40,813 nt of DNA, taken from a virus. Taxonomy: Duplodnaviria; Heunggongvirae; Uroviricota; Caudoviricetes. The notes below the pieces were generated by a model. That model did no database searches, had not been told where the DNA came from, and saw only the letters and a program-made list of their open reading frames with translations. The DNA lies in IMG/VR virus record IMGVR_UViG_2563366797_000003; one strand, written 5' to 3'. The position numbers and the translations under genes were made by a program. Position 1 is the stretch's first letter. Each line of letters begins with the position of its first letter. This document shows, piece by piece, positions 1 to 23,050 of this stretch.

Positions 1-1194
1 ATGATCACCGACACAAAGCTCAGGAAGGCGCTCGGCAAGAAAAGAGATGATATCGAGATTATTTCTGATTCGCACGGGCTCAACGCCAGAATCAGCCAGG
101 CCGGAAAAATATCATTTTTCTATCGGTATCGCTGGGCCGGTAAAGCGGTAAAACTCAATGTTGGTGATTATCCTGCAATGAGTATCACCCAGGCAAGAGA
201 GCGTCGCCAACAATTCAGAAACTGGTTAACTGAGGGACTGGATCCGCGAGAGCAGGTGAAGCTGGATAAGCAGACCCGACAGGAAGCGATGTCCGTTGCC
301 GAAGCGTTCAATTACTGGATTGAAAGGCACTGTATCGCTAACGGGCTAGTTAAAGTCGATTACTATCGCCAGGTGTTTGAGAAACATATCGCCGAACCGA
401 TGAAGAATGTCAAAGTCGATAACACAGCGAAAATGCACTGGATCAACGTCTTCGATTCTATAGAAAGCAGGGTGATGGCTCATTACATGCTTTCGCTGTG
501 CAAACGGGCGTTTAGGTTCTGCGTTAACAGAAGTGTGATCGCCTCAAACCCACTCGAGGGATTACTGCCATCTGATGTCGGGCAAAAGCCTAAAAAGAGA
601 ACTCGCAGGATGGACGATGACGATCTGCGCAAAATCTATCAGTGGTTGAAAAGCCATATGTCGATAGAGTCCGTTTTCCTGGTGAAATTTATTATGCTTA
701 CCGGATGCCGTACGGCTGAGATTCGACTTAGTGAGAGATCATGGTTTCGATTGGATGATAATGAGTGGGTCGTGCCTGCGGGCAGTTATAAAACTCGGGT
801 ACATATTAGAAGGGGACTCTCAGACGCCGCCGTTAACCTGGTCAGAAATCACCTCAAGAAAATAAACACCAATCACCTGGTGACTTCACAACGTAAAATT
901 GATGGCGGGATCAAAGATTCGCCCGTTCATTCACCTGTGGCATCCAATTACGCCCGTTCTATTTGGAATGGAACAGGTATGGCAGAGTGGTCGCTTCATG
1001 ATATGAGGCGGACGATAGCCACAAATCTCTCTGAGTTAGGTTGCCCGCCGCACGTAATTGAAAAGCTGCTCGGGCATCAGATGGTGGGGGTTATGGCGCA
1101 TTACAACCTTCATGACTATATCGATGATCAGAAACACTGGCTCCGCGTTTGGCAGAGCCATCTTGAAGAGATCATCGGAGAGCCCTTCAGTTAA
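1..1194 (+). CDS. int: Tyrosine-type site-specific integrase (P4-like family)
   Basis: 397-aa ORF; N-terminal arm-binding-like region ([23 protein letters not shown]), C-terminal catalytic region with HxxR-like and conserved Tyr (MRRTIATNL...LLGHQ...MAHYN). Sits at the genome edge next to an excisionase-like gene. Confidence 0.9.
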
Positions 1195-7376: not shown

Positions 7377-8069
7377 TTATGCGAAGCGCTTGTAGTCTAT
7401 TGATTGTCTCAGTAGCACTTTAGCCATTACGTAGAACTGATCTTCGTCTTCTGACTCAATATACCATTTCTCGTAGATAGGGTTGTCTGAGATAACAGCA
7501 AGCCGATCTCTTTGCATCTGAAGCCTTTTGACGTGCAGAGTTTTTCCGAACACAAATACGTAAACACCATCACCATCAAAATGAGTCACGCCAGTATCAA
7601 CAAAAATTTGATCTCCTGGTGAGATGGTTCCATCCATGCTGTCGCCGTTCACGGTAATAACTTTTACATTAGCTGCGGGGCGATTTCCGAAAAGTGCGCG
7701 AGCCTGTTCAGTTGTGTATTCGATTGCTCTTATGGTTTCGATAAAATCGCTGGTAACTAGCGAGCCAGGACCGGCGCTGGCCTTAACGTCAAGCACATCC
7801 ACGCGGTATATCTCATTCAAAACTGGTTTAATTTGGTATGGCGTGTTTACTTCGCGAATGCCAGATTCAAACATTTCACCTTGTCCTGTTGAAAGCCATT
7901 CAGGACGCACACCAAGAACAGATGCGATCTCTACTGTTTTTCGTGAGCCTTTCGCACCTTTAAGCAATTTATTTACGCTGGACTGAGCCATACCAACATC
8001 TTTCGCCAGCTTAGCCTGCGTATATCCAGCGACGTCCATTGCGTGCCCTAAGCGTTCTGAAAATCCCAT
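7377..8069 (-). CDS. cI: CI-type phage repressor (N-terminal HTH plus C-terminal S24 LexA-like peptidase domain)
   Basis: 230 aa; HTH region (YTQAKLAKDVGMAQSSVNKLLKG) and S24 autocleavage-type C-terminus (VNGDSMDGTISPGDQIFVD...KTLHVKRL). Divergent from a cro-like gene with an operator cluster between them. Confidence 0.9.
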   Translation of the reverse strand: MGFSERLGHAMDVAGYTQAKLAKDVGMAQSSVNKLLKGAKGSRKTVEIASVLGVRPEWLSTGQGEMFESGIREVNTPYQIKPVLNEIYRVDVLDVKASAGPGSLVTSDFIETIRAIEYTTEQARALFGNRPAANVKVITVNGDSMDGTISPGDQIFVDTGVTHFDGDGVYVFVFGKTLHVKRLQMQRDRLAVISDNPIYEKWYIESEDEDQFYVMAKVLLRQSIDYKRFA

Positions 8070-14869: not shown

Positions 14870-15652
14870 ATGAACCTTGAAAACACAGTGAAATACCACT
14901 TCGCTAAATCCACACTGATTAGCGATTCTCCGCGCGCTACCGCCTCCGATTCACTGACCGGTACCGACATAATGGCTGCCATGGGCATGACGCAGGAACG
15001 CGCCGCAATGGGTTACAGCGCCTTCCTCGGCAAGATGGGCATAAGCAATAACGACCGGGATCGGGCGATCGGTCTGCTGGCTGAGTACGCGATGACAAAA
15101 TGCGACAAGGTTGCCGCACTGCGTAAGCTCGGTGCCGCGGTTAAACCTCAGGTGATGCACCAGTTGGCCACCTTCGCTTTTGAGGACTATTCCCGCAGCG
15201 CTGCCAGCGTGAAGCAGTGCGATTGTTGTGACGGTCAGGGCTTCATTGAGGCTGACGTGTTTACCAATAAATTCCGTAAGCCAGAAGGGAAAATGACCGT
15301 GTCCGGGATGGTGAAGGTCAAAGAATCCATCAAAGTGCTATGCAAAAAGTGTAATGGCTCTGGTGTGGTTAGTGCTTCTTGCAGTGATTGCCATGGGCGC
15401 GGCAAGGCAGTGAACCAGGCTCTTACTGAGAAACAGGGCGTTCCTGTTCTGGCTGACTGTAAGCGCTGCGGAGGGCGTGGGTATGAACGACTTCCGTCGA
15501 CTGAAGCCTATGCTGCTGTATGCCAGATTACTGACGCCATTAGCCTGGACACCTGGAAAAAGTCTGTTAAGCCATTCTACGACCTGCTGATCACGAAATT
15601 TGATATCGAAGAGTCCTGGGCCGAAAAACAGCTTAAGCAGATAACGCGGTAA
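14870..15652 (+). CDS. Q-like late-gene antiterminator (phage 21/82 type)
   Basis: 260 aa; N-terminal SDSPRATASDSLTGTDIMAAMGM block and multiple CxxC zinc motifs; located directly upstream of the lysis cassette. Confidence 0.7.
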   Translation: MNLENTVKYHFAKSTLISDSPRATASDSLTGTDIMAAMGMTQERAAMGYSAFLGKMGISNNDRDRAIGLLAEYAMTKCDKVAALRKLGAAVKPQVMHQLATFAFEDYSRSAASVKQCDCCDGQGFIEADVFTNKFRKPEGKMTVSGMVKVKESIKVLCKKCNGSGVVSASCSDCHGRGKAVNQALTEKQGVPVLADCKRCGGRGYERLPSTEAYAAVCQITDAISLDTWKKSVKPFYDLLITKFDIEESWAEKQLKQITR

Positions 15653-15855: not shown

Positions 15856-16425
15856 ATGAATAATCTACCCGATGATTACTTTTTGGATGCGGACGACGAA
15901 CTCGTTGCTTTTCTGGAGAAGCAGGGCGAGGATTGTATACGCGAAATTCACCAGTCCAACGCACTAAACAAAGAAAATGGCCAGAAGTTATTGAGTATAC
16001 TCATTGCTGGCGTGGGCTCGTCATTTTTGTTATTAACGCAACGTACAGGTTTTGATTACCTCACCGCTGGAATGTCTGTTTTTTTAGTCTACTGGGCAAT
16101 GTGTGCGGCTTATCTTGTTCGCTGCGTCCTCGTTGTAAGGTCACGAGCTCTCGTGTCATCGACACCCTATGCGCTTTACCATGATGGCTATAAAGGGTTT
16201 ACTGAAGATGATTACACTGGTTTTGAGTCGAAAGGATTTTCAGGAAAGCGTTCAACATTGAACGTCTTGCGGCGCTACCGGCTTGCGGATTTAACCAGAA
16301 TGGCTGAAATGAGTAAAAAAGAGAATGCCAGAATAGGCCGAGAACTAGAAAGGGTAAGGATCGCTACAATCCTCACCCCTGTTTGTGCACTTGTAATCTC
16401 AGTACTTACTTACCTTTTTTTCTGA
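15856..16425 (+). CDS. Hypothetical multi-pass membrane protein; cargo (moron) gene between Q and the holin
   Basis: 189 aa with a GAGGTTGGGGA RBS; three hydrophobic segments (LLSILIAGVGSSFLLL, MSVFLVYWAMCAAYLVRCVLVV, ATILTPVCALVISVLTYLFF); flanked by terminator-like hairpins. Confidence 0.55.
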   Translation: MNNLPDDYFLDADDELVAFLEKQGEDCIREIHQSNALNKENGQKLLSILIAGVGSSFLLLTQRTGFDYLTAGMSVFLVYWAMCAAYLVRCVLVVRSRALVSSTPYALYHDGYKGFTEDDYTGFESKGFSGKRSTLNVLRRYRLADLTRMAEMSKKENARIGRELERVRIATILTPVCALVISVLTYLFF

Positions 16426-16646: not shown

Positions 16647-16678
16647 CGCCCCGGCACCCGCTGGGGCTTTTTTATTTC
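16647..16678 (+). terminator. Intrinsic terminator upstream of the holin
   Basis: GC-rich hairpin gcccc-(loop)-ggggc at 16648-16668, followed by TTTTTTATTT. Confidence 0.6.
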
Positions 16679-16789: not shown

Positions 16790-17176
16790 ATGTCCGATCC
16801 AATTTCCGGTACTGGGCTGGCTGGTGGTGCCCTGACGGGTGCCAGTGTTTATGGACTGCTGACCGGAACTGATTACGGCGTTGTATTTGGCGCATTTGCA
16901 GGGGCTGTATTCTACATAGCAACAGCAGCGGATCTGAGCGCATCGCGCCGACTGGCATATTTTATCGTGTCGTATATTGCCGGGATCCTTTGCTCTGGGT
17001 TGGTTGGCTCCAAGCTGGCAAGCTTGACCGGATACAGTGATAAACCTCTGGATGCCATTGGTGCCGTAATCGTATCTGCTTTAGCCGTTAAGATCCTGAC
17101 GTTCCTGAATAATCAGGATATCGGGTCGCTGGTGGCGCTCATAACGCGCCGGGGAGGTTCAGGTGGAGCTAAATGA
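16790..17176 (+). CDS. Holin-like membrane protein
   Basis: 128 aa with an AGAGGGGG RBS; Gly/Ala-rich transmembrane segments; first gene of the lysis cassette. Confidence 0.6.
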   Translation: MSDPISGTGLAGGALTGASVYGLLTGTDYGVVFGAFAGAVFYIATAADLSASRRLAYFIVSYIAGILCSGLVGSKLASLTGYSDKPLDAIGAVIVSALAVKILTFLNNQDIGSLVALITRRGGSGGAK

Positions 17177-17444
17177 CCCGACAGCAACTATAAACGCGCT
17201 GTTATGTGCTTGTGTTGTTATTACTCTGATGTTTTATCGTCGTGGTGATTCGCGGCATCGTCCTTGGGTTTCACGTTTAGCCTGGCTGATTACTGTTACA
17301 TACAGTGCTGTTCCGTTGGCCTATCTCTGTGGGATTTATCCCCATTCCTCATGGCCCATTATCGTGGCGAATACTATTTTTCTTTCCGTGCTGGTGGCCG
17401 TCAGAGGCAACGTTGCACGCCTGGTTGATCATCTGAGGCACTAA
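17163..17444 (+). CDS. Second holin / antiholin-like small membrane protein
   Basis: 93 aa; GTG start with a GGAGG RBS; two to three hydrophobic helices; sits between the holin and the endolysin. Confidence 0.5.
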   Translation: MELNDPTATINALLCACVVITLMFYRRGDSRHRPWVSRLAWLITVTYSAVPLAYLCGIYPHSSWPIIVANTIFLSVLVAVRGNVARLVDHLRH

Positions 17445-18058
17445 TGAACCAACAATTATTTCAAAAGGCGGCTGGTATCAGCGCCGGACTGGCTGTGCGC
17501 TGGTTTCAACCAGTAGATGCAGCGATGAAAGAATTCGGCATTACAGCACCCGCGGATCAGGCCATGTTCATCGCTCAGGTAGGTCATGAGTCTGGTGGCT
17601 TTAGCGCTGTAGTTGAAAATTTGAACTACACACCATCTGCGCTGGTGGCGACGTTCGGAAAGAGGATCACACAGCAGCAGGCTGATGCCCTTGGCAGAAC
17701 ATCCGGACATGCAGCTCGTCAGGATGCTATTGCCAATCTGGTGTATAGCAACCGCCTGGGTAACAAAGCGCCCGGCGACGGCTGGAAATATCGCGGCAGA
17801 GGGTTAATTCAAATCACTGGCCTCGACAATTATCGCACCTGCGGGGCTGCTCTGAAGTTAGATTTGGTGACTTCACCTGAACAACTGGAACAGGAACTAC
17901 AGGCTGCGCGCTCAGCTGCATGGTTCTACACCTCTAAAGGCTGCATGATCTACGGTGCCGATATTAATCGTGTTACTCGCATCATTAACGGCGGTCTGAA
18001 CGGTATTGAGGATCGTAAGGTCCGATACAACAAGGCGCGGGCGGCGCTGCTGGTATGA
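17444..18058 (+). CDS. Endolysin, glycoside hydrolase family 19 (chitinase-like lysozyme)
   Basis: 204 aa; GH19-type motifs (FIAQVGHESGGF, YRGRGLIQITGLDNY); start overlaps the upstream stop. Confidence 0.8.
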   Translation: MNQQLFQKAAGISAGLAVRWFQPVDAAMKEFGITAPADQAMFIAQVGHESGGFSAVVENLNYTPSALVATFGKRITQQQADALGRTSGHAARQDAIANLVYSNRLGNKAPGDGWKYRGRGLIQITGLDNYRTCGAALKLDLVTSPEQLEQELQAARSAAWFYTSKGCMIYGADINRVTRIINGGLNGIEDRKVRYNKARAALLV

Positions 18059-18447
18059 AGATGAGTTATTGGGCGCTTATTTTAACGTTTATTGCTTGTA
18101 TTGCTGGTGGTCTTGTCTGGTCAGCGAATCATTACCATGGAAAGTTTCTGGAGGAACAGCGGCGCGCTGACGATGCAGAACAGCGCGCTGATTCCTTTGA
18201 GACCATCACCGCGAATGTCCTGCGCACCGTAGCAATAACGAACATCATTCTGGAGACAAATCAATATGCCAGGCAGCAGATCGCACTGGAGTCACAGAGA
18301 ACCGAGAACGATATCAAGGCTGCTGTTGCGGATGATGATTGTGCTGTTCGTTTTGTGCCTTCTGGCGCAGTTAAGCGGCTGCACGACTACGCGAACGGTC
18401 TACGTTCCAGTTCCGGTGGTTCCGTTACCAGCCAACCTGACGGCTGA
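18055..18447 (+). CDS. Rz-like inner-membrane spanin
   Basis: 130 aa; N-terminal TM (YWALILTFIACIAGGLVW) followed by a coiled-coil-like region; overlaps the endolysin stop (ATGA). Confidence 0.65.
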   Translation: MKMSYWALILTFIACIAGGLVWSANHYHGKFLEEQRRADDAEQRADSFETITANVLRTVAITNIILETNQYARQQIALESQRTENDIKAAVADDDCAVRFVPSGAVKRLHDYANGLRSSSGGSVTSQPDG

Positions 18448-18610
18448 AACACCCCAGCCAGATTTACCCGATCCGTTTACGTGGGGAGCAAGCCTTAACC
18501 TGAATGTTGCGTTGTTGTCAGCGTTAGCACAGTGCAACAGGGATAAGGCTGATATCAGGACTTTCGAGAACAACAGGGCAGGACAAACAGATGGCACGAT
18601 TAAACGTTGA
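18332..18610 (+). CDS. Rz1-like outer-membrane lipoprotein spanin
   Basis: +1-frame ORF overlapping the 3' part of Rz; signal peptide plus lipobox MMIVLFVLCLLAQLSGC; Pro-rich mature region. Confidence 0.55.
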   Translation: MMIVLFVLCLLAQLSGCTTTRTVYVPVPVVPLPANLTAETPQPDLPDPFTWGASLNLNVALLSALAQCNRDKADIRTFENNRAGQTDGTIKR

Positions 18611-18776
18611 AGTTATCCCACCAGACAGCGAGGTGCTGAACGGGATTTTTGCAGAGATTGAGCGCAAATATGCGCGTCAGCCGCTGACGCCAAAAGTAAT
18701 TGATGAAATGCAACGCGAAGCGACGCGCCTTGTACGGCGAATGATAACCACAAAGGTTACGTTCGTCCGGGACTGA
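18591..18776 (+). CDS. Hypothetical small protein
   Basis: 61-aa ORF between the spanins and the HExxH protein; weak RBS. Confidence 0.3.
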   Translation: MARLNVEVIPPDSEVLNGIFAEIERKYARQPLTPKVIDEMQREATRLVRRMITTKVTFVRD

Positions 18777-18830
18777 CATTACAGAAGCCCTTCACTGAGG
18801 GGCTTCGATAATGGAGCACTGGGATTATTC

Positions 18831-19451
18831 ATGAACAGACCACACCCACCAGCGCATTTTACGATGCCACCTGACCCGAAGCCTTACATCAGCATAATGC
18901 CCGCCATTGACGTTGGCGAGTGGCTGAATCAGCACATCCTGAGCGATGAGGGTGACCTCTACAACCCTGACCACCAGCATTTGCTTGAAGCGGATCTGTG
19001 CTTTCTCTGGGCGTCGAACACTTTCGAGAAGAAAGGGCGGTCCGTGCTGGGGCAGGCGGAAGAAGTGGCAATGCGGGCTGGAGGCTGGCAGAAAGCGCGG
19101 ATGGAGCAGCAGATGTATGAATGGTTCGGCAGGGTGCCGCAGTTCATCATCACGCTGGCCGCCGATTACTGCTCGCAATGTTCCGATCTGGAATTCTGCG
19201 CGCTGATAGAGCACGAGCTTTATCACATCTGCCAAGCGACAGATGAATTTGGTGCGCCGAAGTTCACGCAGGAAGGGCAGCCAAAGCTGAAGCTGCGCGG
19301 CCATGACGTGGAAGAGTTTGTGGGCGTGGTTCGCCGTTACGGTGCGAGCCGGGACGTGCAGGAAATGATTGATGCGGCGAATCAGCCAGCGGAGGTTGCT
19401 CATCTCGATATTGCCAGAGCGTGCGGGACGTGCATGCTGCGACTGGCTTAA
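18831..19451 (+). CDS. Putative zinc metallopeptidase-like phage protein (HExxH motif)
   Basis: 206 aa containing HELYH with nearby Cys/His/Asp residues (CSQCSDLEFCALIEHELYHICQATDEFG); located between the lysis cassette and the terminase genes. Confidence 0.5.
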   Translation: MNRPHPPAHFTMPPDPKPYISIMPAIDVGEWLNQHILSDEGDLYNPDHQHLLEADLCFLWASNTFEKKGRSVLGQAEEVAMRAGGWQKARMEQQMYEWFGRVPQFIITLAADYCSQCSDLEFCALIEHELYHICQATDEFGAPKFTQEGQPKLKLRGHDVEEFVGVVRRYGASRDVQEMIDAANQPAEVAHLDIARACGTCMLRLA

Positions 19452-19482
19452 ATACTGGACTGTATAAGACGAATGGTGATTT

Positions 19483-19956
19483 ATGGCTGCATTAAAACCT
19501 GATGTGAAAGCCTTCATCATTCAGTCGCTTGCGTGCTATGACACGCCATCGCAGGTGGTCGAGGCTGTCCAAAAAGAATTCGGGATCAGGATCACCCGCC
19601 AGCAGGCTGAATCTCACGACCCCACGAAGGCCAGCGGTAAGACGCTCGCCAAAAAGTGGATCGAGATGTTCCACGCGACGCGCGAACGGTTCCTGACCGA
19701 AACCAGCGACATTCCGATAGCGAACAAATCCTATCGCCTCCGCGTGCTTGACCGCATGGCAACCAAAACCGAGGGGATGAAAAACTTCTCCCTGACGGCG
19801 CAGCTTATCGAACAGGCCGCGAAAGAGGTTGGCGACGCTTACACCAATAAGCTGAAGGTTGAGAGCACTGGCAAGGATGGCGGCCCGATCAAGACCGAGA
19901 CGACCAACCTCACCGCAGATCAGGCCGCAGAGATTTACCGCAAGATGATGGGCTGA
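19483..19956 (+). CDS. Putative terminase small subunit
   Basis: 157-aa ORF immediately upstream of the large terminase; basic, helix-rich N-terminus. Assigned by position and remembered DUF2280-like similarity. Confidence 0.5.
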
Positions 19957-19958
19957 TC

Positions 19959-21581
19959 ATGCCTCTCCCGTTTGAATTCGATTTCAGAAACCCTGATTAC
20001 CAGATGGTTTTTGAATGGCGGATGGAGCGCTTACAGCGCATTCGCCAGAACCCTGAAATGCTGCCAGCGCTAAAGCAGTTTTACCGCACCAACCCGGCAC
20101 AGTTCATCATCGACTGGGGTATGACGACTGACCCGCGTAACATCGATTATGGCCTGCCGGTCACCATCCCTTTTCTGCTGTTCCCGAAACAGGAAGAATG
20201 GATTCACTGGATCATGGAGCGGCGCGAACGGCTGGAGAACGGCATCACCGAAAAGAGCCGCGAAATGGGGCTCAGTTGGACCGCGATCGGGCTGGCCTGC
20301 TCGCTTTGTCTCTTCAACAAAGAAATGGTCATCGGTTTCGGCTCCCGTAAAGAGGAATACGTCGACAGCACCGGTGACCCGAAGGCGCTGTTCTGGAAGG
20401 CGCGAAAGTTCGTGGAAACACTGCCCATCGAGTTTCGTGGTTCGTGGGACGAGAAGAAGCATGCGCCGTATATGCGCGTTGAGTTTCCAGATACTGGCGC
20501 GGTTATCAAAGGCGAGGCTGGCGACAATATCGGACGTGGTGACCGTACCACGCTCTACCTGGTGGATGAATCTGCATTCCTCCTGCGTCCTCTGTTGATT
20601 GATGCGGCGCTGTCGCAAACCACCCGTTGCCGTATTGACCTGAGCTCGGTTAATGGCATGGCGAACCCGTTCGCGCAGAAGCGCCACGGCGGAAAAATAC
20701 CAGTATTCACGTTCCACTGGCGAGATGACCCGCGCAAGGATGAAGAGTGGTATCGCAGGGAGTGCGAGAAAATCGACAATCCGGTGGTGGTGGCGCAGGA
20801 ACTTGACCTGAACTACAGCGCATCTGCGGAAGGCGTCCTGATCCCGTCCGACTGGGTACAGGCTGCCGTCGACGCGCATATCAAACTTGGTATTCAGCCA
20901 ACGGGCAAGCGACTGGGCGCGATGGACGTCGCCGACGAAGGCCGGGACAAAAATGCCTTTTCGACCCGTCACGGCTTCCTTCTGGAGAACGTGCGTGAAT
21001 GGTCCGGCGTTGGCAGCGACATTTACCAGTCTGTTGAGAAGGTCTTCGGCTTTTGCGAACAGGACAACCTCGAAGAGTTTCGCTTCGACGAGGACGGCCT
21101 GGGTGCTGGCGTTCGCGGCGATGCGCGCGCCATCAACGAACTGCGTTACGCAGCGCGCCGACCGTCAATACTCGCCACACCGTTTCGTGGTAGCGGCGCG
21201 GTATTTGATCCGGACGATGAAGCGGTGCGCGGGGACAACGGACAGGCCGCACGCCTGAACAAGGACTTCTTCGCCAACGCCAAGGCCCAGAGCTGGTGGT
21301 GGCTACGCAAGCTTTTCCAGAACACCTATCGCGCCGTGGTTGAGGGCATGGCCTACAACCCGGACGAAATCATCTCAATCAGCAGCGCCATGGCGAGCAA
21401 AGACAAACTCATCATTGAGCTGTCGCAGCCGACCTACTCCATTAATGGCGTGGGGAAAATCGTTGTTGATAAACAGCCTGATGGCACCAAGTCGCCGAAC
21501 CTCGCCGACTCGGTGATGATCAGCTACGCGCCAATGAATTCAGCCCTGAACATCTGGGAGCTGCTAGGGAGACAGGCCTGA
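19959..21581 (+). CDS. Terminase large subunit
   Basis: 540-aa ORF with ATPase-like N-terminal and nuclease-like C-terminal halves; followed by the portal gene with a TGATG overlap. Confidence 0.75.
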
Positions 21582-23050
21582 TGGCACGAAACAAGCAATC
21601 CTCTCAGCGAACGGCACAGGCCACCGCTGACGGCTACGAGAACTTCGTCGCCCGCGTTGGGATGCAGACGCCTAACCAGCATTCAGCATCGACCTACCGG
21701 GCGAACTTCACCAGCCGCAACCGCATGCTGGTGGAATGGTCATATCGCGGTTCGTGGGTTATCGGTGAAGCGGTCGACGCTATCCCGGACGATATGACCC
21801 GAAAGGGCATTCGCATCACTTCGGAGATTGACGCCAAAGACCGTGGCACCCTCGAAGCGCAACTGGATGAGTTGCAGATCTGGGATGCGCTGAACGACGT
21901 GCTGAAATGGTCGCGCCTCTACGGCGGCGCGGTCGGCTTCATCATGATCGAGGGGCAAGCACCAATGACCCCGCTGCGACTCGAAACCATTGGCGAGGGC
22001 AAGTTTAAGGGCATTCTCCCGCTCGACCGCTGGATGATTAACCCGGTGCTGACACGCCGCATTAAAGAGATGGGGCCGGACCTCGGCAAGCCTGAGTTTT
22101 ACGACGTGGTGACCACCGCAACGGGCATTCCGGCCTGGCGCATCCATCACAGCCGCCTGATCCGCTTTGATGGCGTCACGCTGCCATTCCAGCAGAAGAT
22201 GACCGAAAACGAATGGGGAATGTCGGTTGTAGAGCGTATCTGGGATCGGCTTACTGCGTTCGATAGCGCTACTGTCGGCGCGGCGCAGCTGGTCTATAAA
22301 GCGCATCTGCGTACCTATAGCGTGGAGAAGTTGCGCGAGCTTATCGCGCTTGGAGGCCCGGCGTTCGAAGCGTTGCTGAAGAACATCGACCTGATCCGCC
22401 AGTTCCAGAGCAATGAAGGTATGACGCTCATGGACTCGCGGGATAAGTTCGAAACCCACCAGTACAGCTTTAGTGGTCTGGATGACATTCTTTCGCAGTT
22501 TGCTGAGCAGATCAGCGGTGCCGTTGGTATCCCGCTGGTACGCCTGTTCGGTCAATCCCCGAAAGGCTTCTCTACTGGTGATGCAGACCTCGCCAACTAT
22601 TACGACCGGGTGAGCTCATTGCAGGAGCGCCGCTTACGGCTGCCGATGCGCCGGATACTGGACATTATGCACCGCTCGGAACTCGGAAAGCCGCTGCCGG
22701 ACGATTTCACGTTTGAGTTTAACCCGCTATGGCAAATGTCAGACGTTGACCGATCAACGGTGGCCGTAAACACCACCAACGCGATCAGTACCGCGCTGGG
22801 CGACGGATTGATGACGCGTAAGGCGGCGATGACCGACCTGCGCGAAAACTCTGACGTCACCGGCATCGGGGCATCCATTACCGACGAGGATATCGAGAAT
22901 GCCGAAGACGAAGCGCCGCCAGGCATCGGCGAACTTGGCGACAAACCGCCAGAGCCGCCAGGCGGAGATCCGATATCGAACGAGCCTACGGCAGATAGCG
23001 CGGGCGGTCGGGGATATCGTAAATGGTCGCTACGATGGTTCAAACGATAG
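21581..23050 (+). CDS. Portal protein
   Basis: 489 aa, directly after the large terminase; acidic C-terminus. Family by recollection (DUF1073-type portal). Confidence 0.65.
   Translation: MARNKQSSQRTAQATADGYENFVARVGMQTPNQHSASTYRANFTSRNRMLVEWSYRGSWVIGEAVDAIPDDMTRKGIRITSEIDAKDRGTLEAQLDELQIWDALNDVLKWSRLYGGAVGFIMIEGQAPMTPLRLETIGEGKFKGILPLDRWMINPVLTRRIKEMGPDLGKPEFYDVVTTATGIPAWRIHHSRLIRFDGVTLPFQQKMTENEWGMSVVERIWDRLTAFDSATVGAAQLVYKAHLRTYSVEKLRELIALGGPAFEALLKNIDLIRQFQSNEGMTLMDSRDKFETHQYSFSGLDDILSQFAEQISGAVGIPLVRLFGQSPKGFSTGDADLANYYDRVSSLQERRLRLPMRRILDIMHRSELGKPLPDDFTFEFNPLWQMSDVDRSTVAVNTTNAISTALGDGLMTRKAAMTDLRENSDVTGIGASITDEDIENAEDEAPPGIGELGDKPPEPPGGDPISNEPTADSAGGRGYRKWSLRWFKR

What the first reader, a model, noticed from the sequence alone, without database searches (positions are those of the whole stretch)
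18591..19451. HExxH metallopeptidase-like protein between the lysis cassette and the terminase
The region between Rz/Rz1 and the terminase is another lambdoid cargo hotspot (bor in lambda). It holds a 61-aa ORF and a 206-aa protein with an HELYH motif flanked by Cys/Asp residues that could bind zinc. Phage HExxH proteins include ImmA/IrrE-type repressor-cleaving proteases and SprT-like proteins; a role in induction control, anti-defence or host-protein processing is possible but cannot be assigned from sequence.
Basis: partly seen in the sequence, partly recalled or inferred. Interest (0 to 1): 0.45.

Follow-up and report, generated by a model that had tools for sequence, protein, structure and literature searches.

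The report
Zinc-protease-like partner of phage small terminase
The 206-aa HExxH protein is a real member of an uncharacterised phage family of zinc-protease-like proteins, and instead of being optional cargo it is almost always fixed directly in front of the gene that recognises phage DNA for packaging, which suggests it helps start packaging.

Summary

The protein is not ImmA/IrrE, and the prophage CI carries its own S24 self-cleavage domain. It is not a SprT family member, not a transposase (the PHROG label) and not cargo.

In 237 of 245 loci from phages and bacterial genomes the gene sits directly upstream of a DUF2280 small terminase. In 5 of the 8 exceptions it sits upstream of another small terminase. 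The upstream neighbours and the large-terminase type vary. Its sequence co-varies with the terminase DNA-binding N-domain. The junction holds a co-varying three-site DNA motif that looks like a pac site. orf61 does not co-occur with it and is the actual cargo-slot gene.

Best reading: a conserved zinc hydrolase accessory of the packaging-recognition module. Its substrate is unknown.

The parts
18831..19451 (+). 206-aa PF18894 'putative phage metallopeptidase' with a minimal zincin fold. Conserved features: catalytic HELYH (aa 128-132, nt 19212..19226), H158-D-V-E161, H48/H50, the C-terminal C198-G-T-C201, and an N-terminal RPxPP motif.
19483..19956 (+). DUF2280 small terminase (157 aa). It has an N-terminal HTH DNA-binding domain (aa about 1-105) that co-varies with the metallopeptidase, and a C-terminal tail (aa about 118-157) that co-varies with the large terminase.
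19453..19470 (+). Two phased direct copies of a short motif in the 31-nt spacer between the metallopeptidase and TerS: TACTGGAC at 19453..19460 and TATAAGAC at 19463..19470, offset 10 nt. They are degenerate in this window and much cleaner in relatives.
   Evidence: Spacer length is 30-33 nt in 96 of 137 loci. Repeat statistics and the 10-11 nt phasing. Concerted change of both copies: 0/5000 permutations reach the observed value.
19567..19574 (-). Third, inverted copy of the same motif (GTCCAAAA on the + strand, which is TTTTGGAC on the - strand), lying in TerS codons 29-31 (V-Q-K).
   Evidence: An inverted copy at +113..+116 in 8 of 18 loci with units of 6 nt or more. Covariation with the spacer copies: 0/5000 and 0/2000 permutations.
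19959..21581 (+). Large terminase (540 aa, no Pfam hit). It is the interchangeable partner of the module.
   Evidence: Position and PHROG/record annotations. The window-type TerL is found in only 9 of the first 84 loci. Other loci carry Terminase_6 (36/63) or Terminase_3 (10/63).
18591..18776 (+). orf61, a small variable ORF (phrog_12811, unknown function). It occupies the true variable slot and is not linked to the metallopeptidase.
   Evidence: phrog_12811 E 2e-35, no Pfam hit. Present in 5 of 84 loci. One hit in the phage collection, in the post-lysis region of phage EKP1. Identity to phage Omnitron starts at 18777, just after its stop codon.
18777..18813 (+). Stable hairpin between orf61 and the metallopeptidase gene, with outer arms CATTA/TAATG and a 10-bp GC-rich inner stem. 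It has no T-run and marks the mosaic junction.
   Evidence: RNA MFE -21.9 kcal/mol, z -3.7. The outer arms are kept while the inner stem changes compensatorily in L006, L011, L018 and L060.

Best explanation
The 206-aa protein is a catalytically competent minimal zincin, a Zn-dependent hydrolase and most likely a peptidase, of family PF18894. It is a conserved part of the packaging-recognition module, not a moron. It is inherited as one unit with the DNA-binding N-terminal domain of a DUF2280-type small terminase. The unit includes a short spacer that carries phased recognition repeats, with a third inverted copy inside the terminase gene. This unit recombines with different large terminases at a junction inside the small terminase.

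Shown here: family membership, an invariant HExxH plus H/E ligand candidates, a zincin fold, near-obligate synteny, covariation with the TerS N-domain, and the three-site motif.

Inferred: the protein works at or with the small-terminase/DNA complex at packaging initiation. One option is a DNA-associated protease that acts on or regulates TerS or a DNA-bound host protein, by analogy with the DNA-activated minigluzincin-like proteases Wss1 and Spartan. The conserved C-terminal CGxC and H48/H50 would form a second metal site or an autoinhibitory switch. The substrate is not known.
For: Membership and active site:
- PF18894 at E 2e-43. All 32 diverse members hit PF18894.
- H128, E129 and H132 are 99-100% conserved. 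H158 is 99%, E161 96%, H48/H50 98/95%, C198/C201 99/89%.

Fold:
- PMC4559962 places Wss1 and Spartan with the minigluzincins and reports activation by DNA.

Synteny:
- DUF2280 follows on the same strand in 160/165 viral loci, within 50 bp in 135, and in 77/80 genome loci.
- In 5 of the 8 exceptions (L090, L092, L099, L169, L176) the next gene is a different TerS-like gene; a TerL follows it in the four loci that extend far enough.
- Genus counts for the two genes in phage records match: Acinetobacter 62/62, Pseudomonas 44/44, Vibrio 8/8, Burkholderia 7/7.
- Phages with the same TerL type but a Terminase_2-type TerS N-domain lack the gene.

Variable surroundings:
- TerL partners are Terminase_6 (36/63), Terminase_3 (10/63) or have no Pfam hit.
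- Upstream neighbours belong to 14 Pfam families, each seen once.

Covariation:
- Spearman correlation of the metallopeptidase with the TerS N-domain is 0.54, with the TerS C-tail 0.22 and with TerL 0.11.
- In 97 pairs with metallopeptidase identity ≥70% but unrelated TerL, the TerS N-domain is 70% identical and the C-tail 36%.

DNA association:
- Many distant members carry an N-terminal HTH extension, and P0250 reaches the HTH_Tnp_1 threshold (24.5 vs 24.1 bits).
- The junction holds a three-site co-varying motif.

Conservation:
- The protein is 45-73% identical between phages of Enterobacteria, Pseudomonas and Acinetobacter.
Against: All the functional evidence is comparative. There is no experiment and no paper on the family: PF18894 appears in one paper and DUF2280 in one, both only as annotations.

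181 Salinibacter phage records have a DUF2280 TerS (33% identity) and no metallopeptidase hit in the phage-collection tblastn. In the one locus inspected, the upstream gene is a membrane protein. So the protein is not universally needed by this terminase type.

A few members are not next to a terminase: L107, L240, and Bordetella PHB04, where it lies 2.1 kb upstream.

The three-site motif is degenerate in this window, and it could belong to TerS alone, with no role for the metallopeptidase.
Confidence: 0.55

Rival explanations
1. It is a late-expressed host-directed or anti-defence protease, that is, accessory 'cargo' in function. It cleaves a conserved host protein or a defence sensor and is kept next to the small terminase only because that position is a safe, co-transcribed place in the late operon.
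For: It is expressed from the late region downstream of Q and the lysis genes. Very high conservation across hosts would fit a conserved host target. DUF2280 phages of Salinibacter do without it. Prophage-encoded zincins that act on host proteins are known, such as Lit of e14 (my own knowledge).
Against: Accessory genes in this region are shuffled freely, with 14 upstream families each seen once. This gene keeps its exact position and a 30-33 nt spacer in about 99% of 245 loci, across phyla and across three or more TerL types. Its sequence tracks the TerS N-domain. It has no PADLOC hit. It is absent from phages that share the TerL but have another TerS N-domain.
Confidence: 0.2
2. It is an ImmA/IrrE-type anti-repressor protease that cleaves the prophage repressor and controls induction.
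For: It shares the HExxH motif and a phage origin. Some distant members carry an HTH.
Confidence: 0.02
3. It is a SprT/Spartan/Wss1-like protease for DNA-protein crosslinks. It clears covalently or tightly bound proteins from concatemeric DNA so that the packaging motor is not blocked. In this reading it is functionally tied to packaging but not specific to TerS.
Against: It fails the SprT-like Pfam threshold. A general DNA-clearing enzyme would not be expected to co-vary with the TerS N-domain or to be missing from phages with other TerS types that use the same TerL.
Confidence: 0.13
4. It is a transposase or another DNA-rearranging enzyme, as labelled in PHROGs (phrog_513) and in several GenBank records.
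For: phrog_513 is annotated 'transposase'. Several phage records use the same label. Some family members have an N-terminal HTH that reaches the HTH_Tnp_1 threshold.
Against: No transposase catalytic domain appears in any Pfam scan. The conserved core is a zincin with HExxH. The HTH is absent from the window protein. The gene has a fixed position and shows no repeats or target duplications that would suggest mobility.
Confidence: 0.01
5. It is a non-proteolytic zinc hydrolase, for example a nuclease like the zincin-related YbeY, that helps cut DNA at the packaging site. This would be functionally analogous to the HNH endonucleases that assist some terminases.
Against: The catalytic Glu of HExxH is invariant, which is typical of peptidases. 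YbeY uses an H-x-x-x-H-x-x-x-x-x-H motif without it (my own knowledge). The top structural neighbours are all peptidases. Terminase large subunits already carry the nuclease (Terminase_6C and Terminase_3C RNaseH-like domains).
Confidence: 0.07

Closest known systems
Pfam PF18894 'Putative phage metallopeptidase' (= phrog_513; RefSeq name 'putative metallopeptidase')
   Same: Full-length, high-scoring member (148 bits against a 23.7-bit cut-off). Proteins 98% identical are already in public databases.
   Different: The family has no experimentally known function. The linkage to the small terminase and the junction motif found here are not mentioned in the only paper in the searchable library that cites the family.
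Minigluzincins (projannalysin, proabylysin, selecase) and the M48/M56 catalytic cores (BepA, HtpX, BlaR1)
   Different: No sequence-level relationship. The protein has about 85 extra N-terminal residues, including the H48-x-H50 motif, and a C-terminal CGxC tail. It occurs in phages next to a terminase, not as an archaeal soluble or membrane protease.
Spartan / Wss1 / SprT-like DNA-dependent metalloproteases
   Different: It fails the SprT-like Pfam model, with sub-threshold hits in only 2 of 32 members. DNA dependence and crosslink repair are untested.
HNH endonuclease accessory of HK97-type terminases (gp74; my own knowledge, Kala et al. 2014)
   Same: A small metal-dependent enzyme gene conserved immediately upstream of the terminase genes. 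In Acinetobacter and Burkholderia phages an HNH gene sits directly upstream of this metallopeptidase.
   Different: It has a different fold and chemistry (zincin HExxH, not a ββα-Me nuclease). Its linkage is to the small-terminase N-domain and not to the large terminase. No functional data exist.
pac sites of pac-type phages that lie in or next to the small-terminase gene (P22 gene 3, SPP1 pacL/pacR; my own knowledge)
   Same: Short recognition repeats, helically phased, just upstream of and inside the 5' part of the small-terminase gene, co-evolving with the DNA-binding domain.
   Different: Binding and cleavage have not been shown here. The motif is degenerate in this window. An mRNA long-range pairing is not excluded.
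ImmA/IrrE (Peptidase_M78) anti-repressor proteases
   Same: They are phage-associated HExxH zinc proteases.
   Different: There is no sequence match and no structural match among the listed hits. The gene lies in the late operon, has no partner Xre repressor, and the CI here is a self-cleaving S24 type.

Membership tests
PF18894 PhageMetallopep | Score above the Pfam gathering threshold over the whole domain | tested here: met
   148 bits against a 23.7-bit cut-off, E 2.2e-43, profile positions 2-134 of 134. phrog_513 E 1.3e-96.
PF18894 PhageMetallopep | Conserved HExxH motif | tested here: met
   H128 and E129 are 100% conserved and H132 is 99% in 131 representatives.
Zincin metallopeptidase (general) | Zincin fold with HExxH on the active-site helix | tested here: met
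Zincin metallopeptidase (general) | A third zinc ligand and bound zinc | tested here: inconclusive
   H158 (99%) and E161 (96%) are conserved 26-29 residues after the motif. Model coordinates cannot be inspected and this region has pLDDT below 50.
Zincin metallopeptidase (general) | Peptide-bond hydrolysis | not testable with these tools
   Needs a biochemical assay.
ImmA/IrrE (Peptidase_M78, PF06114) | Match to the M78 profile | tested here: not met
   No hit at E ≤ 1 in the window protein or in 32 diverse members.
ImmA/IrrE (Peptidase_M78, PF06114) | Adjacent cognate HTH repressor, in an immunity-region context | tested here: not met
   The neighbours are spanins, orf61 and the terminase. 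CI lies 11 kb away and carries its own S24 domain.
SprT-like / Spartan / WLM | Match to the SprT-like (PF10263) or WLM profile | tested here: not met
   No hit for the window protein. Two of 32 members give sub-threshold hits at E 0.019.
SprT-like / Spartan / WLM | Structural similarity of the protease core | tested here: met
SprT-like / Spartan / WLM | DNA-stimulated proteolysis | not testable with these tools
   Only indirect evidence: HTH fusions in distant members.
Transposase (PHROG and GenBank label) | A transposase catalytic domain (DDE, HUH or serine/tyrosine recombinase) | tested here: not met
   Pfam finds only PF18894. A subset of long forms has an HTH_Tnp_1-like N-terminal extension, which the window protein lacks.
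Moron / cargo gene of the Rz-to-terminase slot | Patchy presence, variable position, own promoter or terminator | tested here: not met
   It has a fixed position upstream of TerS in about 99% of 245 loci. No promoter or terminator consensus separates it from TerS. By contrast orf61 meets this definition.
Terminase / packaging-initiation module (accessory component) | Conserved synteny and co-inheritance with terminase genes | tested here: met
   The linkage is to the TerS N-domain.
Terminase / packaging-initiation module (accessory component) | Requirement for DNA packaging, or physical interaction with terminase | not testable with these tools
   Needs genetics or biochemistry. Co-folding of two chains is not possible with the tools given.
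Known anti-phage defence proteins (PADLOC) | Match to a defence-system model | tested here: not met
   No hits for the metallopeptidase, orf61 or TerS.

The most novel reading that the evidence does not exclude
The PF18894 zincin is a previously unrecognised third, catalytic component of a widespread pac-type packaging-initiation system. In this reading it is a DNA-associated protease that acts on the DUF2280 small-terminase nucleoprotein complex assembled on the three-site motif at the gene junction, for example to license, limit or recycle initiation. The zincin, the sites and the TerS N-domain together would form a portable 'packaging-specificity cassette' that plugs into unrelated large terminases.
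Probability: 0.3. Interest if true: 0.75.

Novelty: new member of a known kind. Interest (0 to 1): 0.5.

Why it matters
Small terminases decide which DNA a phage packages, so they govern transduction and the hijacking of helper phages by satellites. How they start and limit packaging is still poorly understood.

If a conserved zinc protease is a working part of that step in hundreds of temperate phages of Acinetobacter, Pseudomonas, Klebsiella, Burkholderia, Vibrio, rhizobia and other hosts, it would add an enzymatic control layer that has not been described for terminases. It would also assign a function to two large families of unknown function (PF18894 and DUF2280).

The co-varying three-site motif gives a concrete, testable candidate for the pac site of this phage group.

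If the rival reading is right and the protein is a host-directed protease, the result still corrects two misleading annotations ('transposase' and 'cargo') and shows where the real variable slot lies.

Tried and rejected
- **Sequence search against solved structures.** Searches with the single protein and with a 32-sequence profile found nothing.
- **NCBIfam and PADLOC.** No hits.
- **AFDB50 fold search.** The library was not available. The BFVD search returned only distant, unannotated PF18894 members.
- **A pac site inside the coding sequence.** A synonymous-site conservation scan over codon alignments (71 metallopeptidase and 55 TerS sequences) found no window of suppressed synonymous change. 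The maximum was z 1.8, at codons 121-136 of the metallopeptidase.
- **Extra copies of the spacer repeat elsewhere in the loci.** None were consistent, apart from the inverted copy at +113..+116.
- **A hairpin sequestering the TerS Shine-Dalgarno sequence and start codon.** Single-sequence folds of the enteric subgroup predict it, but RNAalifold finds no consensus structure across 27 diverse loci. I do not claim it as a family feature.
- **The N-terminal HTH extensions as DUF2280-like.** The DUF2280 HMM gives no significant hit.
- **The Salinibacter phage gene upstream of DUF2280 as a diverged metallopeptidase.** It is a membrane protein, with hhalign probability 0.2%.
- **Context of the distant Bordetella-type clade.** Only the phage itself was found.
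- **A 32-sequence diverse alignment for the genome scan.** It was too divergent to run.
- **The long antisense ORF 18825..19520 (231 aa).** It overlaps the whole gene on the minus strand and I treated it as a by-product of the coding strand's composition. I did not test this.

Full report
**1. The observation**

The window is a lambdoid prophage. It encodes an integrase (1..1194), RecT and ExoVIII, a CI repressor with a Peptidase_S24 domain (7377..8069, minus strand), replication protein O, antiterminator Q (14870..15652), a holin (16790..17176), an endolysin (17444..18058), Rz (18055..18447) and the embedded Rz1/LysC (18266..18610).

Next come the two ORFs of the finding, exactly as described: 18591..18776 (61 aa) and 18831..19451 (206 aa, HELYH at residues 128-132). 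They are followed by a DUF2280 protein (19483..19956), the large terminase (19959..21581) and the portal (21581..23050).

**2. What the 206-aa protein is**

It is a full-length member of Pfam PF18894, "Putative phage metallopeptidase" (148 bits against a 23.7-bit cut-off, E 2.2e-43), and of phrog_513 (E 1.3e-96).
- It has no NCBIfam model, no PADLOC model and no sequence relative in the PDB, even with a profile.
- An exhaustive HMMER search finds 890 clusters at 50% identity.
- Across 131 full-length representatives, H128 and E129 are invariant and H132 is 99% conserved. H158 (99%), D159 (92%), E161 (96%), H48 (98%), H50 (95%), C198 (99%) and C201 (89%) are also conserved.

At the sequence level, 32 diverse members all hit PF18894. 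Only two give sub-threshold SprT-like hits (E 0.019) and none hits Peptidase_M78.

I conclude that this is a minimal zincin with an intact catalytic motif. Its fold resembles the minigluzincin/Spartan group, but it is not a member of the SprT or ImmA/IrrE families. The "transposase" label in PHROGs and GenBank has no catalytic-domain support. It probably comes from an N-terminal HTH extension in a subset of distant members, of which P0250 reaches the HTH_Tnp_1 threshold.

**3. It is not cargo: it is tied to the small terminase**

Annotated phages of Klebsiella, Acinetobacter, Pseudomonas and Rhizobium all show the order metallopeptidase, DUF2280, large terminase, portal. The upstream neighbour differs each time: spanin, HNH endonuclease, holin.

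These were four annotated phage loci and the window itself, plus 160 IMG/VR contigs from two scans that together sampled 76 clusters at 90% identity.
- 160 have a DUF2280 gene downstream on the same strand, and in 135 the gap is under 50 bp.
- In three of the five exceptions (L090, L092, L099) the next gene is a different small-terminase-like gene, and a large terminase follows in the two loci that extend far enough.

An independent set of 80 bacterial-genome loci covers Alpha-, Beta- and Gammaproteobacteria, Acidobacteriota, Armatimonadota, Gemmatimonadota and Chloroflexota.
- 77 of the 80 have DUF2280 downstream.
- Two more exceptions are followed by the alternative small terminase plus a large terminase.

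In the phage record collection the genus counts for the two proteins are almost identical: Acinetobacter 62/62, Pseudomonas 44/44, Vibrio 8/8, Burkholderia 7/7.

The surroundings vary instead.
- The large terminase downstream is Terminase_6 type in 36 of 63 dereplicated loci, Terminase_3 type in 10, and without a Pfam hit (as in this window) in the rest.
- The upstream gene belongs to 14 different Pfam families, each seen once.
- E. coli phage 606R2 has the same large-terminase type and the same small-terminase C-terminal tail as the window. Its small-terminase N-domain is Terminase_2 type, and it has no metallopeptidase.

**4. Which part of the terminase it tracks**

I compared pairwise identities over 64 dereplicated loci.
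- Metallopeptidase identity correlates with the DUF2280 N-terminal domain (Spearman 0.54).
- It correlates much less with the C-terminal tail (0.22) or with the large terminase (0.11).
- The C-tail correlates with the large terminase (0.32).
- In 97 pairs whose metallopeptidases are ≥70% identical but whose large terminases are unrelated, the TerS N-domain is 70% identical and the C-tail only 36%.
- When the large terminases are ≥50% identical, the C-tail is 83% identical.

So a recombination joint lies inside the small terminase. The metallopeptidase and the DNA-recognition domain travel together, and the tail and the large terminase travel together.

The evidence that DUF2280 is the small terminase is as follows:
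- its position in the gene order;
- the tail shared with a Terminase_2-type small terminase;
- a predicted layout of HTH, long helices, β-strands and a C-terminal helix;

**5. A DNA motif at the junction**

The spacer between the two genes has a nearly fixed length, 30-33 nt in 96 of 137 loci. It contains two direct copies of a short motif.
- Of 28 exact repeats of 5 nt or more, 25 are offset by 10 or 11 nt.
- There are 21 different repeat units, and both copies change together.

A third, inverted copy lies at +113..+116, in small-terminase codons 29-31. All three sites co-vary. No permutation out of 5000 reaches the observed value for any of the three site pairs in a fixed-register test. With register optimisation, own-locus matches are 10.41 of 14 against 8.28±0.18, and 0 of 2000 permutations reach that.

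The inverted site changes the encoded residue 30 in step with the spacer: V-Q-K with TTTTGGAC, V-L-K with TTCAGGAC, V-H-K with TTATGGAC, V-Q-A with GCCTGGAC.

The helical phasing and the lack of G·U enrichment among mismatches (20%) favour protein recognition of DNA. A pac-type site or a small-terminase operator would fit. Thermodynamic folding does predict pairing of a spacer copy with the inverted site in about 11 of 17 loci, though not in the window, so an mRNA stem is not excluded.

In the window the copies are TACTGGAC (19453..19460), TATAAGAC (19463..19470) and GTCCAAAA (19567..19574). They are degenerate. A synonymous-site scan found no further signal inside either gene.

**6. orf61 and the real variable slot**

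orf61 (phrog_12811, no Pfam hit) occurs in only 5 of the first 84 related loci, all near-identical relatives of the window. It occurs in one record of the phage collection, in a post-lysis cluster of small ORFs.

Nucleotide identity to the closest phage, Citrobacter phage Omnitron, begins at 18777, immediately after the orf61 stop codon. A stable hairpin (18777..18813, z -3.7) marks that joint. In relatives its outer arms are kept and its inner stem changes compensatorily. Other loci have ordinary terminators at the same place.

It ends upstream of the metallopeptidase.

**7. Mechanism**

Shown:
- a conserved zincin with an intact active-site motif;
- near-obligate, position-fixed linkage to the DNA-recognition domain of the small terminase;
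- a co-evolving DNA motif at the joint;
- HTH fusions in some members.

Inferred:
- The protein acts at packaging initiation, most likely as a DNA-associated protease working with or on the small-terminase complex.
- The conserved H48/H50 and C198/C201 form a second metal site or an autoinhibitory switch.

The weak points are as follows:
- There are no experimental data.
- 181 Salinibacter phage records have DUF2280 and no metallopeptidase hit. I inspected one locus, where the upstream gene is a membrane protein.
- A few members are not next to a terminase.
- The fold scores are modest.

I put 0.55 on "accessory of the packaging-recognition module". The specific idea of a protease acting on the TerS complex gets about 0.3, a host-directed or anti-defence late protease 0.2, and ImmA/IrrE or transposase 0.02 or less.

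**8. Novelty**

The protein is an ordinary member of a catalogued but uncharacterised family, so I rate it a new member of a known kind. The papers the literature searches turned up mention PF18894 and DUF2280 only as annotations, one paper each. The terminase linkage, the recombination joint inside the small terminase and the three-site motif are, as far as I could search, undescribed. Each can be tested directly.

Noticed in passing
window 19453..19470 and 19567..19574 (related loci, e.g. L025:1208-1400, L023:6607-6800): A three-site motif at the junction of the metallopeptidase and small-terminase genes. Two direct copies lie 10-11 nt apart in a spacer of nearly fixed length. An inverted copy lies in small-terminase codons 29-31. 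All three co-vary between loci, and no permutation in the tests reaches the observed match (0/5000 and 0/2000). It is a candidate pac site or operator. The copies are degenerate in the window itself.
   Followed up: yes
window 18777..18813: A stable hairpin between orf61 and the metallopeptidase gene (MFE -21.9 kcal/mol, z -3.7) with no T-run. In relatives the outer arms CCATTAC...GATAATGG are kept and the inner stem changes compensatorily. It coincides with the point where identity to phage Omnitron begins.
   Followed up: partly
window 19483..19956 (small terminase), boundary near codons 105-118: A recombination joint lies inside the small terminase. The N-terminal DUF2280 domain and the C-terminal tail have different histories. 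The tail (aa 119-157) is 64% identical to that of a Terminase_2-type small terminase in E. coli phage 606R2, which has the same large-terminase type.
   Followed up: yes
window 18591..18776: orf61 (phrog_12811) has a 68%-identical homologue in Elizabethkingia phage EKP1, a Bacteroidota host, in a similar post-lysis cluster of small ORFs. That host jump is odd for so small a gene. Its function is unknown.
   Followed up: partly
L085 (Salinibacter phage 4_20) 3932..4980, and 181 Salinibacter phage records: These phage records have a DUF2280 small terminase (33% identity) and no PF18894 hit in the phage-collection search. In the one locus inspected, the gene upstream of DUF2280 encodes a multi-pass membrane protein. 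They are a natural 'minus' control for the module.
   Followed up: partly
P0250, P0251, P0258, P0268, P0308, P0345 and about 25 other cluster representatives: Distant PF18894 members carry an N-terminal extension of 50-115 aa with a recurrent HTH motif (Y-[ST]-x-E-x-K-x-x-A-L...G-D-x-x-x-A-A-K-x-x-x-V-P...W). It joins the core exactly at the conserved RPxPP motif.
   Followed up: partly
window 18825..19520, minus strand: A 231-aa antisense ORF overlaps the whole metallopeptidase gene. I treated it as a by-product of the coding strand's composition and did not test it.
   Followed up: no
window 15856..16425: A 189-aa ORF with no Pfam hit lies between antiterminator Q and the terminator-like hairpin at 16648..16667, upstream of the holin. 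It may be a moron at the start of the late region.
   Followed up: no
window 19471..19530 and the enteric-subgroup loci: In single-sequence folds, the small-terminase Shine-Dalgarno sequence and start codon (GAAUGGUGAUUUAUGG) pair with codons 10-14 (CCUUCAUCAUUC). This could limit small-terminase translation. RNAalifold found no consensus structure across 27 diverse loci, so if real it is specific to the subgroup.
   Followed up: partly
L002 (Acinetobacter phage AM106) 3553..4020; Burkholderia phages vB_PL1 and vB_E192a: An HNH or very-short-patch-type endonuclease gene sits immediately upstream of the metallopeptidase, and overlaps it, in Acinetobacter and Burkholderia phages. This gives the order HNH, zincin, small terminase, large terminase.
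   Followed up: no
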